Source: Escherichia phage WG01
Sequence record: NC_031928.1
Reading direction: 5' to 3' (one strand)
DNA: 64,000 nt
Below the pieces are notes generated by a model that saw nothing but the letters and a program-made list of their open reading frames with translations, searched no databases and was not told the DNA's origin. Shown piece after piece: positions 13,840-17,192 of this stretch (position 1 is the first letter of the stretch; each line of letters starts with the position of its first letter). A program made the position numbers and the translations under genes.

Positions 13840-14174
13840 TAATCACACGAGCCGGACGACGAGTCACAGCTTCCTGAGTCATAAGACGAATAAGAAGAAT
13901 CACCAGTCCAAGAACTGACAGCAGCCGCAACCATAATAGGAGTGGTATCAATATGGCTTGTGCGACGAGCTTCTAAATGTTCTTTTAACTTTTCAGAATT
14001 CAATGGTGTGGCGCATAGACCGACATTACCAGCTTTTTCAGGTTGCCTGATAACTTCTTCCATCGTACCATCACCCATGTAAACATATTCCCTTAACTTA
14101 ACGTCTGATGGACTAATAGGAACCGGCCCTTCGCCAGGGGTAATCTTGAAAAAATTCTTAAGCCAACGAATCAT
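13839..14174 (-). CDS. hypothetical protein with Ser/Cys-rich C-terminus
   Basis: 111-aa ORF; low-complexity C-terminal tail SSYSSYDSGSCDSSSGSCD. Confidence 0.45.
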   Translation of the reverse strand: MIRWLKNFFKITPGEGPVPISPSDVKLREYVYMGDGTMEEVIRQPEKAGNVGLCATPLNSEKLKEHLEARRTSHIDTTPIMVAAAVSSWTGDSSYSSYDSGSCDSSSGSCD

Positions 14175-14380
14175 AGGAAACCTCGTTTAAATTCAACTTT
14201 ATCAATATCATCAGTCTCGTGACGGATTTCGGCATTAAATTCGATAGAACCGTCTTCGTGCATCATAAATGAATGGACAATAACTTCGGTATACCAAGGA
14301 GTATAAAAGTACTTTTTCAATACGTGGTTAGCGATAATTTCATCCAAAGTTTTATTAGGTTTAATCCAACGATTTAACAT
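14171..14380 (-). CDS. hypothetical protein
   Basis: ORF-track ORF trimmed to ATG 14380 with GGAGAA RBS, downstream of promoter cassette. Confidence 0.45.
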   Translation of the reverse strand: MLNRWIKPNKTLDEIIANHVLKKYFYTPWYTEVIVHSFMMHEDGSIEFNAEIRHETDDIDKVEFKRGFL

Positions 14381-14394
14381 AGTGTTCTCCTCTA

Positions 14395-14436
14395 TAAGGT
14401 AAGACCATCTTAACACAACCTTCCTAGAAAGTAAAC
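14395..14436 (-). promoter_or_regulatory. early promoter following soc terminator
   Basis: gtaaac 14431-14436 then -10-like region and GGAGAA RBS. Confidence 0.45.
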
Positions 14437-14440
14437 CCTT

Positions 14441-14470
14441 AAAACGAAAAAAGGAACCCGAAGGTTCCTT
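14441..14470 (-). terminator. rho-independent terminator after soc
   Basis: AAGGAACC CGAA GGTTCCTT hairpin followed by T-run on minus strand. Confidence 0.65.
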
Positions 14471-14474
14471 ATAA

Positions 14475-14708
14475 TTAAACTACTGGGGTCGGCGTGAACA
14501 TTGCTGCGTTCTTAGTTCGCCAATCGGCTGCATCAGTCACTACGGTTGAGTAGGCCGCAACGGCTGAAGGGAAAGTCTGATAATGAGAGTCTGCAATACG
14601 GTGCTCGTTTGAATAAATCTCAAACGGGACCGAAACCTCAGTACCTTTAACTTCTTTGCCTTCGCCAGCTGGATGCGTGAAGGTTTTAATATTAACGAAA
14701 CCACCCAT
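14475..14708 (-). CDS. soc: small outer capsid protein Soc
   Basis: 77 aa; GFVNIKTF...AHYQTFPSAVAAYSTV matches recalled T4 Soc; late-promoter TATAAATA upstream; terminator downstream. Confidence 0.8.
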   Translation of the reverse strand: MGGFVNIKTFTHPAGEGKEVKGTEVSVPFEIYSNEHRIADSHYQTFPSAVAAYSTVVTDAADWRTKNAAMFTPTPVV

Positions 14709-14739
14709 AATTAACTCCTTTGTTGTTTAATTACAGGTG

Positions 14740-14747
14740 TATTTATA
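14740..14747 (-). promoter_or_regulatory. late promoter TATAAATA (soc)
   Basis: Minus-strand TATAAATA between gene 56 stop and soc start. Confidence 0.6.
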
Positions 14748-14749
14748 AC

Positions 14750-15271
14750 TTAATAACCTCGGTCTTGGCGAGCGAAGTTTTCAGCATTTTTCAGATAATA
14801 CAGTTTAAAGATTTCTTCAGCAGTCAGTCCAAGACCTTGGAACATATTCAGAACAAAGTGCAGAATATCAATCATTTCGAATTTAATTTCGAGCTGGTCT
14901 TCAGGAGACAAATCGTTAATCAGGGTTTCACGACGTTCAGCATGTTGAGCTTTCCAAGGCTTCCATACAGCGCTCGCATCTTTTTCGCCATTGCTCATGC
15001 CACCAAGAGAAGTCAGAAGTTCGCGGAATTCATCATCAATATAATCTTTCTGATTGCGCAACCAATCAACAACTTCACCTGCAGTAGCCAAGTCATCAGG
15101 ATGACGGTTATATTCAGGTTTATCTTTAGCCAAACGGACCTGTAATGATTTCTGCATATCAAGCATAACCTGCAGAGGGTCTTTATCTTCGTGAATCAGA
15201 GCATTAAAATAAGCTTCCTCAGCTTTATCAACACCAGCAATAAGTTGTGAGCATTCGTTAAAGTGTGCCAT
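14750..15271 (-). CDS. 56: dCTP pyrophosphatase (MazG-like dCTPase)
   Basis: 173 aa, length and position between soc and 61 as T4 gp56. Confidence 0.8.
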   Translation of the reverse strand: MAHFNECSQLIAGVDKAEEAYFNALIHEDKDPLQVMLDMQKSLQVRLAKDKPEYNRHPDDLATAGEVVDWLRNQKDYIDDEFRELLTSLGGMSNGEKDASAVWKPWKAQHAERRETLINDLSPEDQLEIKFEMIDILHFVLNMFQGLGLTAEEIFKLYYLKNAENFARQDRGY

Positions 15272-15362
15272 TATATTTTTTCCTTTTCAATTCATTAGTA
15301 AGTTAGATAATTATAAACTGTTAGATTAAAGCGAATAAATATTATTTTAACAGGAGGATAAC

Positions 15363-15563
15363 ATGGGCAGTATTTTTTACCAAATCTGGAAATTGGCCGA
15401 AAAGAAAGACAAGAAAATGATGTTAGGTTTTCTTGCGCTAGACGTATTCCTTTGGAATCTTCTAGTAGTCCCTGTAGCCGCTAGCCAAGGGATAATTTTA
15501 CCAGCGGTTACAATGGAACACGTATTAAGCATAATTGGATTCTTTAGCGGAGTTCCTGCCTAA
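15363..15563 (+). CDS. small hydrophobic protein (only plus-strand gene called)
   Basis: 66-aa ORF with strong AGGAGG RBS 5 nt before ATG; predicted TM segments; convergent with gene 61. Confidence 0.5.
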   Translation: MGSIFYQIWKLAEKKDKKMMLGFLALDVFLWNLLVVPVAASQGIILPAVTMEHVLSIIGFFSGVPA

Positions 15564-16588
15564 ATTTTAGAATATTTTGAAAGTCTCATTTTTGCCATTA
15601 AACCTTGGGCTATATTAGCTTTCATATATGCCAGTACATCATTTATATCAGCTTTATCTTTCATAATCATATCATTTATATCTTTAGAAGGCCATGGAGC
15701 CTTGTCCCAGAATAGAACCCTTTCGCCAGCATCAACTAATCGTTGCATACGCTTAATTGTGTCAGGATGGCGGGGTTCATTGTCCATTACCCAGGCACGA
15801 GTTTCTTTACATGGAACCATAGCCAAGTCCAACGACCCGCCAGTAATTGCTATTGCATTCGGAACAAACAAAGAGTCAATAGGGCCTTCCATTACCCACA
15901 CCAACTGACGTTCGTCAACTGTATCCATTCCATATATTTTTGTAGCTTGGTCATGAGCTTTTATTGTAATATATTTTTGTGGAGCATCTTTACGTAAGGC
16001 TCGACCCTGAAAACTTTCAATTTGTTTATTCTTATTGAAAATTGGAATAACCAAACGAGGCTCAGGCATTTCTTTAGAATAGGTCCCTGGATTGACAGAG
16101 TTCACCAATGCCGGCCATTCTTTAGTAAACCATAAGCGATTCCATTTGTTTTCAGGAATGCAACGTAGTGTTACATATTTGATAATAGGATGGTCCTTTG
16201 GCATTCTATCCAGACGTTCACAGAAATTAAGCTTTTCGATGACAGGCATCTTGGCTTTAATCTTTTCTGATATCTCCACCTTAGGTGCAGCTTGTCTCCC
16301 GAACGATTGCTCTTTATGTTTCTCAAGAATATATTCTCGATATAAATCAGGCTCATATTCGTATAGATACTTCTTAATTCCTGCTGAATAGTCACAGTTA
16401 AAACAGTGCAGCATTACGGAGCCGTCATTGGCCGGATAGGCCCAAAAACGAGCTTTGTTCTCATCTTTTAGGGAGTCGCCACATACACGACAACGACAGT
16501 TTAATTTAAAATCACTACCGGTTACTTGTCTGAATTTAGGTTGGTAATTCAAGGCACGTACAGCAAATTCTCTATCGACATATGACAT
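15560..16588 (-). CDS. 61: DNA primase
   Basis: 342 aa; zinc-binding CRCRVCGD...CFNC N-terminus plus TOPRIM-like core; length as T4 gp61. Confidence 0.9.
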   Translation of the reverse strand: MSYVDREFAVRALNYQPKFRQVTGSDFKLNCRCRVCGDSLKDENKARFWAYPANDGSVMLHCFNCDYSAGIKKYLYEYEPDLYREYILEKHKEQSFGRQAAPKVEISEKIKAKMPVIEKLNFCERLDRMPKDHPIIKYVTLRCIPENKWNRLWFTKEWPALVNSVNPGTYSKEMPEPRLVIPIFNKNKQIESFQGRALRKDAPQKYITIKAHDQATKIYGMDTVDERQLVWVMEGPIDSLFVPNAIAITGGSLDLAMVPCKETRAWVMDNEPRHPDTIKRMQRLVDAGERVLFWDKAPWPSKDINDMIMKDKADINDVLAYMKANIAQGLMAKMRLSKYSKI

Positions 16589-16626
16589 TATTTTTCCTTG
16601 GGCTCTAAATTAATAGAGCCATTATA

Positions 16627-16788
16627 TCATTCGTTTTCGGATTTTTCTTTACGCTTTTTAGATGGGATTTGTTCAGGCCCTTTGTTGACGACCGCGCCTG
16701 AGGTAGTTCCGGAGGCAATATTAGATGGGTTACCACCTGCATCGCCTGCGACCATATCTTCGTTCATAACTTCTTTAAAAGATTTCAT
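16627..16788 (-). CDS. hypothetical small hydrophilic protein (53 aa)
   Basis: Hand-translated ORF MKSFKEVMNEDMVAGDAGGNPSNIASG...; AGGAG RBS; below track cutoff. Confidence 0.3.
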   Translation of the reverse strand: MKSFKEVMNEDMVAGDAGGNPSNIASGTTSGAVVNKGPEQIPSKKRKEKSENE

Positions 16789-16801
16789 AGGCTCCTGGCC
16801 T

Positions 16802-16809
16802 TATTTATA
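16802..16809 (-). promoter_or_regulatory. late promoter-like TATAAATA
   Basis: Minus-strand TATAAATA upstream of small ORF 16627..16788 and gene 61. Confidence 0.35.
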
Positions 16810-16996
16810 TTACGAAAATAGCTTTATCACCATTCGCATCAGTGACTTCATAGGTATCTTCATGATACAGTGGGATAATCCAAGTCACACCATCACCGGC
16901 AATAATATGGATAGCTTCTTGGTCCTTTGATACGATTTCATACTCTTCGAATAATTCGAATACAGAAATCTTAGAGCCCGTACACATTGCACTCAT
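16805..16996 (-). CDS. hypothetical protein
   Basis: ORF-track ORF trimmed to first ATG with GAGAAGGGA RBS. Confidence 0.4.
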   Translation of the reverse strand: MSAMCTGSKISVFELFEEYEIVSKDQEAIHIIAGDGVTWIIPLYHEDTYEVTDANGDKAIFVI

Positions 16997-17192
16997 ATTG
17001 TTCCCTTCTCTCAATCAGTTGGCGATGGGCCTTTTTAAGTTTACGAAGCTGGCGCTTAGTTGGCCGTGCAACATAAGCTTGAGTAGTTACTCGACCAAAA
17101 ACACCGTACTTAGGTGAAGGAGAATCGATAAAGACTTCCCACTGACAAGAGTAACTATACACCGCTTTAGAGAATTGAGTTAAGACAAACAT
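16971..17192 (-). CDS. hypothetical basic protein
   Basis: 73-aa ORF in operon frame. Confidence 0.45.
   Translation of the reverse strand: MFVLTQFSKAVYSYSCQWEVFIDSPSPKYGVFGRVTTQAYVARPTKRQLRKLKKAHRQLIERREQYECNVYGL

What the first reader, a model, noticed from the sequence alone, without database searches (positions are those of the whole stretch)
15272..15563. Lone plus-strand gene and AT-rich divergent region between 56 and 61
The only convincing plus-strand gene in 64 kb is a 66-aa hydrophobic ORF with a perfect AGGAGG RBS, diverging from gene 56 across a 92-bp AT-rich spacer and converging on gene 61. In T4 the 56-61 interval holds other genes on the main strand, so the content here differs. 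A strand switch plus AT-rich spacer is also the kind of place a replication origin or regulatory hub could sit.
Basis: partly seen in the sequence, partly recalled or inferred. Interest (0 to 1): 0.5.

Follow-up and report, generated by a model that had tools for sequence, protein, structure and literature searches.

The report
Conserved late small membrane gene (dam.1)
The lone plus-strand ORF is a real, conserved small membrane-protein gene of T4-like phages, also present but unannotated in the T4 reference genome, that appears to be switched on late and is distantly related to phage holins; its function has never been tested.

Summary
Window 15363-15563 (+) encodes a 66-aa hydrophobic protein with an AGGAGG ribosome-binding site. 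It diverges from gene 56 across a 91-bp spacer of 21% GC, and its stop codon overlaps that of primase gene 61. The window is a Dhakavirus, 99.5% identical to phage QL01. In QL01 this is the only plus-strand CDS among about 130 in the first 64 kb.

The gene is real. It belongs to PHROG 2024 (unknown function), known as dam.1 in T4T and ORF029w in RB69. About 1000 T4-like phage records carry it, always tail-to-tail with gene 61. dN/dS is 0.07-0.34 and variable sites by codon position are 26/15/57.

T4 has the same ORF between dam and 61, but RefSeq NC_000866 does not annotate it.

An ATAAATA box lies 13-21 nt before the start codon in most genera. It matches the T4 late promoter TATAAATA exactly in four of them. 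In the window and several relatives it abuts, back to back, the MotA-type middle promoter of gene 56. That promoter is the orthologue of the one linked to T4 oriA.

Profile comparisons link the family, through 97-aa prophage relatives, to the PF11351 "GTA 3TM" holins. The link is transitive only. I infer a late, holin-like inner-membrane role. This is not shown.

The parts
15363..15563 (+). 66-aa ORF (dam.1 / RB69 ORF029w family, PHROG 2024). Predicted N-in membrane protein with a basic amphipathic N-terminus, a TM helix at about residues 19-41, a conserved turn (G43, P47) and a second short hydrophobic helix at 51-62.
15352..15357 (+). Shine-Dalgarno AGGAGG, 5 nt before the ATG. GGAGG or AGGAG is present in all 19 homologues examined except VR26b (GGTGG).
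15334..15341 (+). Late-promoter-like box AATAAATA (7 of 8 matches to the T4 late promoter TATAAATA), ending 21 nt before the ATG. The ATAAATA core is at the same place in most genera and is a perfect TATAAATA in Marfa, Kosakonia 305, Q7622 and L021.
15327..15333 (-). MotA-box-like CGCTTTA of the gene 56 middle promoter (minus strand). It directly abuts the late box of the other strand.
15310..15315 (-). -10 hexamer TATAAT of the gene 56 middle promoter, 13 nt downstream of GCTT. It is conserved with T4 P(M)16.53.
15272..15362 (.). 91-bp AT-rich (20.9% GC) divergent promoter spacer.
14750..15271 (-). Gene 56 (dCTPase), the divergent neighbour.
15560..16588 (-). Gene 61 (DNA primase), the convergent neighbour. 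Its stop codon overlaps the ORF's stop within CTAA at 15560-15563.

Best explanation
The ORF is a real gene of T4-like phages: the dam.1 / ORF029w family, PHROG 2024.

Expression. Late in infection it is transcribed from a gp55-type late promoter, the ATAAATA box at 15334-15341, and translated from a strong AGGAGG site. That promoter sits back to back with the MotA-dependent middle promoter of gene 56 in the 91-bp AT-rich spacer. One short stretch thus fires leftward in the middle period (gene 56, orthologue of the T4 oriA-associated promoter) and rightward in the late period.

Product. It is a 66-aa inner-membrane protein. It has a basic cytoplasmic N-terminus and a TM helix carrying invariant W31-N32 and P37. 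A conserved periplasmic turn (G43, P47) follows, then a second short hydrophobic helix with a conserved acidic residue.

Ancestry. This two-helix core is homologous to the membrane core of PF11351-type ('GTA 3TM') holins. The link runs through 97-aa relatives in enterobacterial prophages. The N-terminal region and the charged C-terminal tail of those holins are missing.

Inferred mechanism. It oligomerises, or pairs with another membrane protein, in the inner membrane late in infection. It acts as an accessory holin-like factor affecting membrane integrity or lysis timing, not as the main holin, which in T4 is gpt.

Status of each step:
- Shown: the gene exists, is under purifying selection, is syntenic, carries the promoter-like motifs, and is hydrophobic with a helical model.
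- Probable: late timing and remote homology to holins.
- Inferred only: a role in lysis.
For: Gene reality:
- PHROG 2024 match, E=5.8e-28.
- tblastn hits in 120 + 698 + 279 phage records across many genera (Dhakavirus, Tequatrovirus, Mosigvirus, Gaprivervirus, Kanagawavirus, Gelderlandvirus, Jiaodavirus, Mosugukvirus, Marfavirus and others), next to the primase in every locus I fetched (loci).
- dN/dS 0.07 (Kosakonia 305/PEi20), 0.16 (Marfa/Q7622), 0.22 (VR26a/SP18a) and 0.13 (window/JS98).
- Variable sites by codon position 26/15/57.
- GC skew flips across the ORF.

Late promoter:
- The ATAAATA core lies 13-21 nt before the ATG in 15 of the 19 independent upstream regions, although the rest of these regions does not align between genera. 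It is a perfect TATAAATA in 4.
- In Kosakonia 305 the box lies within the 22 nt that separate the ORF from the neighbouring divergent gene.
- soc, a known late gene, carries TATAAATA in the window as an internal control.

Middle promoter: (C/T)GCTT(T/A/C)A, 13-14 nt, TATAAT is conserved upstream of gene 56 in 9 phages including T4. T4's annotation gives a mot box and -10 there and places oriA beside it.

Membrane protein:
- Best 19-residue Kyte-Doolittle window 2.05; N-terminal net charge +3 to +7.
- AF2 model with pLDDT 74 and helices at 2-10, 14-41 and 51-62.
- Invariant W31, N32, P37 and P47.

Holin link:
- Distant family members and the 97-aa prophage relatives hit phrog_3427 'holin' (E about 5e-4) and PF11351 (15-20 bits, E down to 8.5e-4).
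- hhalign: family vs prophage relatives 99.1% (E=2e-18). Prophage relatives vs 27 PF11351 holins 93.3% (E=2.6e-7). Family vs holins 77% (score 33). Combined family plus relatives vs holins 91% over 78 columns.
- Controls: reversed profiles scored 10-20, and column- or block-shuffled profiles scored at most 17.
- The reference holin (Paracoccus phage ParKuw1) scores 72 bits on PF11351 and directly follows the endolysin.
- The RcGTA locus rcc00555-rcc00556, which I take from my own knowledge to be the source of PF11351's name (no membership test was run here), is required for lysis and release (PMC5026251).
- In the prophages the relative lies in a cluster with a lysozyme and a TM-plus-coiled-coil Rz/XhlA-like protein, and it is the only multi-TM small protein there.
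Against: - The window protein and the T4 protein themselves score like reversed decoys against a holin HMM (1.4 vs 0.6 bits). They have no Pfam, NCBIfam or PDB hit. The holin link is only transitive, and short TM proteins are prone to spurious profile matches.
- The protein lacks the N-terminal about 60 residues and the charged C-terminal tail typical of PF11351 and of holins in general.
- It is not next to an endolysin. The e gene lies about 44 kb away in the QL01 annotation.
- From my own knowledge of T4 genetics, not tested here: t-defective T4 does not lyse. A dam.1 product therefore cannot be a sufficient holin.
- The late box is 7/8 in this window and only 6/8 in Gelderlandvirus and phage Ursula.
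- No transcript, peptide or mutant data were found.
Confidence: 0.45

Rival explanations
1. It is a real late small inner-membrane protein, but its job is unrelated to lysis. Examples would be binding and modulating a host or phage membrane protein, exclusion or immunity, envelope remodelling, or an assembly aid. On this view the holin resemblance is either ancient ancestry without retained function or a compositional artefact.
For: All the evidence for a conserved membrane protein applies. The protein itself has no significant direct match to any holin model. It lacks the holin N- and C-terminal regions and is not near an endolysin. The family is narrow, with only 20 representative clusters at 50% identity among 1.84 billion proteins, which suits a host-specific interaction. 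The prophage relatives sit at the border of variable defence-like cargo (RelA_SpoT, KAP NTPase).
Against: Profile-profile and stepping-stone evidence links the family to PF11351 holins well above the reversed and shuffled controls. Late-promoter timing fits a lysis-phase role better than early functions such as superinfection exclusion.
Confidence: 0.35
2. The AT-rich spacer and the start of gene 56 act as a replication origin equivalent to T4 oriA. It would be primed by the MotA-dependent gene 56 transcript. The small ORF would be a neighbour, not part of the origin. This reading is not exclusive of the best explanation.
For: The T4 records place oriA at the 5' end of gene 56 and name the gene 56 transcript as the primer. 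The review PMC3016281 reports that oriA is active and that 'some evidence' points to a nearby MotA-dependent promoter. The mot-box plus TATAAT promoter is conserved in the window's spacer and in 8 other phages. The spacer has the lowest GC of the neighbourhood.
Against: T4 origins share no sequence motif, and oriA lies outside skew or strand-switch regions in T4. The strand switch here therefore says nothing either way. AT-richness is expected of any promoter region. No repeats or iterons were sought or seen, and no replication data exist for a Dhakavirus. In T4 the ORF and this promoter are separated by dam, so the two are not a functional unit.
Confidence: 0.25
3. The ORF is not translated. 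What matters is the late plus-strand RNA, which runs antisense into primase gene 61 and down-regulates primase or gene 56 mRNA late in infection. Alternatively, the conservation reflects DNA or RNA signals of the minus-strand 61->56 transcript.
For: The two stop codons overlap, so any late transcript must enter gene 61 in antisense. No terminator-like site lies between them on either strand. The region is read in antisense by any 61->56 read-through.
Against: The variation has a codon-position pattern (26/15/57) and dN/dS is 0.07-0.34. Motifs are invariant at the amino-acid level despite saturated synonymous change between genera. Every first-copy homologue has a strong SD. Rfam finds nothing in the region beyond two chance-level hits outside the ORF. 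An antisense effect could still exist in addition to the protein.
Confidence: 0.05

Closest known systems
T4T dam.1 / RB69 ORF029w / QL01 gp028 (PHROG 2024, 'unknown function')
   Same: Same family, with E=5.8e-28 to the PHROG profile. It has the same length (63-69 aa) and the same WN-x4-P-x5-G-x3-P core. It sits in the same tail-to-tail position against primase gene 61 and has the same ATAAATA + GGAGG upstream signals.
   Different: The window protein belongs to the Dhakavirus/Marfavirus-type subfamily. It is about 20-26% identical to the T4/RB69 type over the full length, and BLASTP aligns only the core (E=3e-7). Gaprivervirus VR26 carries one copy of each type in tandem, so the two types are paralogous rather than strictly orthologous. 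In T4 the upstream neighbour is dam, not gene 56.
PF11351 GTA_holin_3TM (RcGTA rcc00556-type holins; e.g. Paracoccus phage ParKuw1 holin)
   Same: It shares a two-helix membrane core. The pattern is a basic stretch, then a TM with an aromatic residue (W or Y) followed a few positions later by P, then an acidic turn containing LP..(L/V)(D/E), then a short hydrophobic helix ending in G(L)G. hhalign gives 77-93% probability with clean controls.
   Different: No direct HMM hit at Pfam's threshold. The protein lacks the N-terminal amphipathic region and the 'TSDEEREAAK' helix (about 60 aa), and it lacks the basic C-terminal tail. It is not adjacent to an endolysin. It occurs in phages that already have a different, well-studied holin (T4 gpt type). 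No functional data exist.
97-aa proteins of enterobacterial prophages (P0132/P0133 type) and 70-aa E. coli prophage proteins (P0141/P0142)
   Same: Clear homologues: hhalign 99.1%, E=2e-18, and PHROG 2024 hits at E about 1e-11.
   Different: They carry an extra N-terminal amphipathic helix and linker that align with the holin family. They lie in temperate-phage clusters with a lysozyme and a spanin-like protein, as the last conserved gene before variable cargo.
Class II holins / pinholins (two TM helices, N-in C-in), e.g. phage 21 S68. This comparison is recalled from my own knowledge and was not tested by sequence.
   Same: Similar size (about 66-70 aa), a predicted hairpin of two hydrophobic helices, and late expression.
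   Different: No sequence similarity was tested or claimed. There is no charged C-terminal domain and no dual-start motif. The second helix is short and carries E/H or D residues.

Membership tests
PHROG 2024 / dam.1-ORF029w family | Significant match to the family profile | tested here: met
   E=5.8e-28 covering 1-64 of 65 profile positions. T4, RB69, PKO111 and Kosakonia 305 members match the same profile.
PHROG 2024 / dam.1-ORF029w family | Conserved core W-N-x4-P-x5-G-x3-P | tested here: met
   W31, N32, P37 and P47 are invariant and G43 is conserved in at least 90% of 30 diverse members.
PHROG 2024 / dam.1-ORF029w family | Position: opposite strand to the early genes, tail-to-tail with primase gene 61 | tested here: met
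   A 4-nt end overlap with gene 61 occurs in the window and in T4, RB69, WFL6982, VR26, Kosakonia 305, PEi20, Marfa, STP4-a and Ursula. A 21-24 nt overlap or a short gap occurs in PM2, Q7622, CGG4-1 and PKO111.
T4 late genes (gp55/gp33/gp45-dependent) | TATAAATA box a short distance upstream of the transcription start | tested here: inconclusive
   The window has AATAAATA (7/8). Four relatives have a perfect TATAAATA. The ATAAATA core is positionally conserved in 15 of 19 upstream regions. Gelderlandvirus and Ursula have ATTAAATA (6/8).
T4 late genes (gp55/gp33/gp45-dependent) | Transcript appears late and depends on gp55 | not testable with these tools
   No transcript data were found.
PF11351 GTA_holin_3TM | Pfam HMM score at or above the gathering threshold (24.8 bits) | tested here: not met
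   The window protein has no hit. The best family relatives reach 15.3-20.3 bits. Against my own holin HMM the window protein scores 1.4 bits, equal to decoys.
PF11351 GTA_holin_3TM | Profile-profile homology of the membrane core | tested here: met
   hhalign gives 77% (family), 93% (prophage relatives) and 91% (combined, 78 columns). Reversed, column-shuffled and block-shuffled controls score 20 or less, against 33-46 for the real comparisons.
PF11351 GTA_holin_3TM | Full architecture: N-terminal segment + charged helix + two C-terminal TM helices + basic tail | tested here: not met
   Only the part aligned to profile positions about 63-125 of 151 is present. There is no N-terminal region and no basic tail.
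PF11351 GTA_holin_3TM | Encoded next to an endolysin | tested here: not met
   The neighbours are gene 56 and gene 61. The e lysozyme gene is at about 59.3-59.8 kb in QL01. ParKuw1 does have the endolysin-holin pair.
PF11351 GTA_holin_3TM | Permeabilises the inner membrane / required for lysis | not testable with these tools
   Needs genetics or expression tests.
T4-type R-loop replication origin (oriA/oriF/oriG kind) | MotA-dependent middle promoter whose transcript can prime | tested here: met
   The match is by sequence only. CGCTTTA, 13 nt, TATAAT lies upstream of gene 56 and is orthologous to T4 P(M)16.53.
T4-type R-loop replication origin (oriA/oriF/oriG kind) | Origin activity (nascent DNA peak, R-loop, DNA unwinding element) | not testable with these tools
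   Only the T4 annotation and review statements are available.

The most novel reading that the evidence does not exclude
T4-like phages, including the model phage T4, encode a second, previously unstudied holin-derived membrane protein (dam.1). It would be expressed from a late promoter and would contribute to lysis timing, lysis inhibition or late membrane depolarisation alongside the canonical T/RI/RIII system. In Gaprivervirus it would work as a two-paralogue pair. Its promoter would form a compact middle/late bidirectional switch with the oriA-associated gene 56 promoter.
Probability: 0.25. Interest if true: 0.6.

Novelty: new member of a known kind. Interest (0 to 1): 0.35.

Why it matters
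T4 is one of the best-studied genomes, yet its RefSeq record lacks this gene and nothing has been published on it. If the product really is a holin-derived late membrane protein, the T4 lysis and lysis-inhibition paradigm (T, RI, RIII, spanins) has an unexamined conserved component. That can be tested directly with one deletion mutant.

More modestly, the analysis fixes an annotation gap in T4 NC_000866 and JS98. It also flags wrong product names in several other records. It shows a neat back-to-back middle/late promoter module next to the oriA-associated promoter.

If the holin link is wrong, the finding is just one more conserved small hypothetical membrane protein of T4-like phages.

Tried and rejected
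- Direct family searches with the window protein gave nothing. Pfam had none. NCBIfam had only a chance SspI hit at E=0.12. The PDB sequence profile gave only chance TM matches at E>=0.66. Scanning all 30 alignment members against Pfam gave only scattered hits at E>0.01.
- Rfam on 14000-17000 gave two sub-threshold chance hits outside the ORF. I rejected a structured-RNA reading.
- The sigma-70 promoter and terminator scan gave no more sites than shuffles. It found no terminator between the ORF and gene 61 or between 61 and 56.
- Foldseek against BFVD returned only family members at E about 0.02-0.06. Weak, non-significant 'holin' entries followed, with E of 2.1 or worse for every entry named 'holin'. 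I treated these as a lead only. The afdb50 library was unavailable.
- The search for related loci with the family alignment failed because no stretch was conserved enough. With the single protein it gave only 9 loci.
- tblastn of the metagenomic relative P0130 against phages found no match.
- Literature searches found nothing for dam.1, for T4 small-protein or Ribo-seq work, or in a phage essentiality preprint (HIDEN-SEQ) that mentions T4.
- I considered the 51-aa antisense ORF 15377..15532 (-). It is interrupted in a close relative (L017), and the codon-position pattern supports the plus frame.
- I considered that the ORF is a Dhakavirus novelty replacing T4 dam. I rejected this because T4 and RB69 carry it too.

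Full report
WHAT THE WINDOW IS. The 2-kb stretch around the finding is 99.5% identical to Escherichia phage QL01 and about 95% identical to JS98. Both are T4-type phages of the genus Dhakavirus. The neighbours are soc (14475-14708, -), gene 56 dCTPase (14750-15271, -) and gene 61 primase (15560-16588, -).

THE OBSERVATION. The ORF at 15363-15563 (+) encodes 66 aa: MGSIFYQIWKLAEKKDKKMMLGFLALDVFLWNLLVVPVAASQGIILPAVTMEHVLSIIGFFSGVPA. AGGAGG lies at 15352-15357, 5 nt before the ATG.

The spacer to gene 56 is 91 nt with 20.9% GC, against 39.4% for the window. It is the GC minimum of the surrounding 5 kb. GC skew turns positive exactly over the ORF.

The ORF's TAA and gene 61's TAG overlap within CTAA at 15560-15563. 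In QL01 every one of the roughly 130 CDS annotated in the first 64.5 kb is on the minus strand except this ORF, gp028. The description is therefore confirmed.

IS IT A GENE? Yes, on four lines of evidence.
- It matches PHROG 2024 ('unknown function') at E=5.8e-28.
- tblastn finds it in 120 phage records of the Dhakavirus/Marfavirus/Kanagawavirus/Gelderlandvirus type.
- Among nine ungapped homologues, variable sites fall 26/15/57 on codon positions 1/2/3.
- Pairwise dN/dS is 0.07-0.34 wherever dS is not saturated. Examples are Kosakonia 305 vs PEi20 (7 non-synonymous against 21 synonymous changes) and Marfa vs Q7622 (0.16).

The 51-aa antisense ORF is broken in a close relative. Rfam finds nothing in the region.

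T4 AND RB69. T4 does have dam between 56 and 61. However, the 310-nt 'gap' between dam and 61 contains a 66-aa plus-strand ORF (NC_000866 17738-17938). It ends in the same 4-nt overlap with gene 61 and shares the core LWN....PVA...G...P.VT.

RefSeq T4 and JS98 do not annotate this ORF. T4T calls it dam.1 and RB69 calls it ORF029w. With the T4 protein as query, 698 further records match, from Tequatrovirus, Mosigvirus and Gaprivervirus. A third group covers Jiaodavirus, Gelderlandvirus and others.

RB69 has exactly the window's layout. The flank on the gene 61 side is constant. The other flank varies: gene 56, dam, a small NTP-pyrophosphohydrolase-like gene, or a second copy.

Gaprivervirus VR26 has both subtypes in tandem, 8 nt apart, behind a single promoter-like box. 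The window's protein (Dhakavirus type) and T4's are therefore paralogous subtypes of one family. All members hit PHROG 2024.

An exhaustive HMM search of 1.84 billion representatives finds only 20 clusters. This is a small family restricted to enterobacterial phages.

THE SPACER. On the plus strand an ATAAATA core ends 13-21 nt before the ATG in 15 of the 19 independent homologues examined. The rest of the upstream sequence does not align between genera.

The box is a perfect T4 late promoter TATAAATA in Marfa, Kosakonia 305, Q7622 and L021. It is AATAAATA here and in RB69, GATAAATA in T4 and PM2, and ATTAAATA in Gelderlandvirus and Ursula. In Kosakonia 305 the box lies within the 22 nt between the ORF and the neighbouring divergent gene. 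ATAAATA-N8-16-GGAGG occurs twice in the window against 0.13 expected. The known late gene soc has TATAAATA at 14740-14747.

On the minus strand the spacer reads CGCTTTA, 13 nt, TATAAT, then about 40 nt to the gene 56 ATG. This is a MotA-box middle promoter. The same arrangement is found in T4, VR26, SP18, RB69, WFL6982, CGG4-1, PM2 and JS98. It corresponds to the mot box and -10 annotated as P(M)16.53 in the old T4 record.

The mot box (15327-15333, -) and the late box (15334-15341, +) abut. The AT-rich spacer is thus a compact bidirectional promoter: middle-mode leftward and, probably, late-mode rightward.

ORIGIN IDEA. T4 records place oriA at the 5' end of gene 56, with the gene 56 transcript as primer. 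The T4 replication review says oriA is active and that 'some evidence' implicates a nearby MotA-dependent promoter. It also says oriA lies outside strand-switch and skew regions and that T4 origins share no motif (PMC3016281).

The window keeps the orthologous promoter. Nothing here can show origin activity. The strand switch is not evidence for it.

THE PROTEIN. The N-terminus is amphipathic and basic, with net charge +3 to +7 across subtypes. Hydrophobicity is continuous from residue 19 to the end. AlphaFold2 with a 30-sequence alignment gives pLDDT 74, with helices at 2-10, 14-41 and 51-62 and a loop at 42-50. W31, N32, P37 and P47 are invariant, G43 is nearly so, and an acidic residue follows at 52.

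I read this as N-in, TM1, a short periplasmic turn, and a second short helix that either re-crosses the membrane or lies in it.

REMOTE HOMOLOGY. Direct searches of Pfam, NCBIfam and PDB are empty. A search with an alignment of distant members brought in two groups from enterobacterial prophages: 97-aa proteins (P0132/P0133) and 70-aa E. coli proteins.

The 97-aa proteins, and two short distant family members (P0123, P0127), hit phrog_3427 'holin' at E from about 5e-4 to 2e-3. P0123 and the 97-aa proteins also hit PF11351 'Holin of 3TMs, for gene-transfer release' at 15-20 bits, below the 24.8-bit cut-off. P0132 also finds the annotated holin of Paracoccus phage ParKuw1 by tblastn. That holin scores 72 bits on PF11351 and directly follows the endolysin.

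I built three alignments: D (42 dam.1-type), I (32 prophage-type) and H (27 PF11351 holins from IMG/VR). The hhalign results were:

| Comparison | Probability | E-value | Score |
|---|---|---|---|
| D vs I | 99.1% | 2e-18 | 97.9 |
| I vs H | 93.3% | 2.6e-7 | 46 |
| D vs H | 77% | 2e-5 | 33 |
| D+I vs H (78 columns) | 91% | 1e-6 | 43.4 |

Controls scored much lower. Reversed profiles scored 10-20, 20 column shuffles at most 12.6, and 60 block shuffles at most 17.1.

HMM-to-sequence scores also separate real sequences from reversed ones. I sequences have a median of 13.8 bits against at most 0.4 for decoys. A D-only HMM against the holins has a median of 8.1 bits against at most 2.7.

There is a caveat. 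The window protein itself scores 1.4 bits against the holin HMM, no better than its reversed decoy. The link is therefore transitive.

The shared pattern runs as follows: a basic stretch; a TM with an aromatic residue (W or Y) followed a few positions later by P; a turn with LP..(L/V)(D/E); then a short helix ending in G(L)G. The dam.1 proteins lack the holins' N-terminal about 60 residues and their basic C-terminal tail.

The RcGTA locus rcc00555-rcc00556 is reported to be required for lysis and release (PMC5026251). An earlier paper noted that direct lytic evidence was then missing (PMC3423380). That this locus gives PF11351 its name is my own knowledge; no membership test of rcc00556 was run here.

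In the prophages the relative sits in a cluster with a lysozyme and a 94-aa TM-plus-coiled-coil protein that is weakly Rz/XhlA-like. It is the only small multi-TM protein there. Variable defence-like cargo follows it.

HOW IT MOST LIKELY WORKS. The claims stand at three levels.
- Shown: a conserved, selected gene for a small hydrophobic protein, with conserved promoter-like and SD signals.
- Probable: late transcription by gp55-RNA polymerase; insertion in the inner membrane with the N-terminus inside; descent from a PF11351-type holin.
- Inferred: an accessory holin-like or lysis-timing role.

Several points argue against a canonical holin. The regulatory termini are missing and there is no endolysin neighbour. 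From my own knowledge, T4 t mutants do not lyse, so this protein cannot suffice for lysis.

A non-lysis membrane role is nearly as likely. Because the stops overlap and no terminator intervenes, late transcription must also run antisense into the primase gene. That could matter in addition to the protein.

NOVELTY AND SCORE. The gene is annotated as hypothetical in many records and forms a PHROG. One UniProt entry for a family member is even labelled 'Holin'. As an object it is therefore known, and no function has been published.

This analysis adds four things:
- proof that the gene is real and is shared with T4 and RB69;
- the late-promoter signal, which in the window and several relatives abuts the middle promoter;
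- the paralogue structure of the family;
- a controlled, transitive link to the GTA-type holin family.

I rate it a new (divergent, truncated) member of a known kind. Interest is 0.35. It is mildly surprising for T4 specialists and cheaply testable, but it is not strange.

Noticed in passing
window 16802-16809 (-), upstream of ORF 16627-16788 (-): A perfect late-promoter box TATAAATA followed by AGGAG lies just upstream of the gene 61.1 homologue (53 aa). This small 'early-region' gene also looks late-promoted.
   Followed up: partly
window 16601-16620 (-): A perfect hairpin, GGCTCTA-ttaatt-TAGAGCC, sits between 61.1 and the Shine-Dalgarno of primase gene 61. It may be an RNA processing, stability or translational-control element.
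   Followed up: no
L005 (VR26) 1995-2192 and 2201-2401; L014 (SP18) 1311-1508 and 1501-1617: Gapriverviruses carry two tandem paralogues of the small ORF. One is T4/RB69-type and one is Dhakavirus-type, 8 nt apart behind one ATAAATA box. In SP18 only the C-terminal part of the second copy matches, so it may be decaying.
   Followed up: partly
L003 3239-3439 (= T4 NC_000866 17738-17938); L001 3667-3867 (JS98): The T4 RefSeq record and the JS98 record do not annotate this conserved ORF. T4T (dam.1), RB69 (ORF029w) and QL01 (gp028) do.
   Followed up: yes
phage records (e.g. SAKp28, VAC36, CGG4-1, SHP1): Several GenBank records give this 66-aa ORF obviously wrong product names ('DNA packaging ATPase', 'dCTP pyrophosphatase', 'thymidylate synthase'). 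These look like shifted annotation lines.
   Followed up: no
L033 6001-7368; L035; L123 3001-4587; L110 3001-5737: In enterobacterial prophages the 97-aa relative is the last conserved phage gene. It is followed by variable, defence-like cargo: a RelA_SpoT small alarmone synthetase-like protein, a KAP-family NTPase and a DNA methyltransferase. A GIY-YIG SegE-like gene lies in the same cluster.
   Followed up: partly
L010 (Marfa) 1191-1472, L008 (PEi20) 1650-1943, L027 (Ursula) 1193-1477, L011 1166-1393: In several genera a small (75-97 aa) gene lies between gene 56 and the small ORF. RefSeq or PHROG labels it 'nucleoside triphosphate pyrophosphohydrolase' (phrog 4856). It takes the place that dam occupies in T4.
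   Followed up: no
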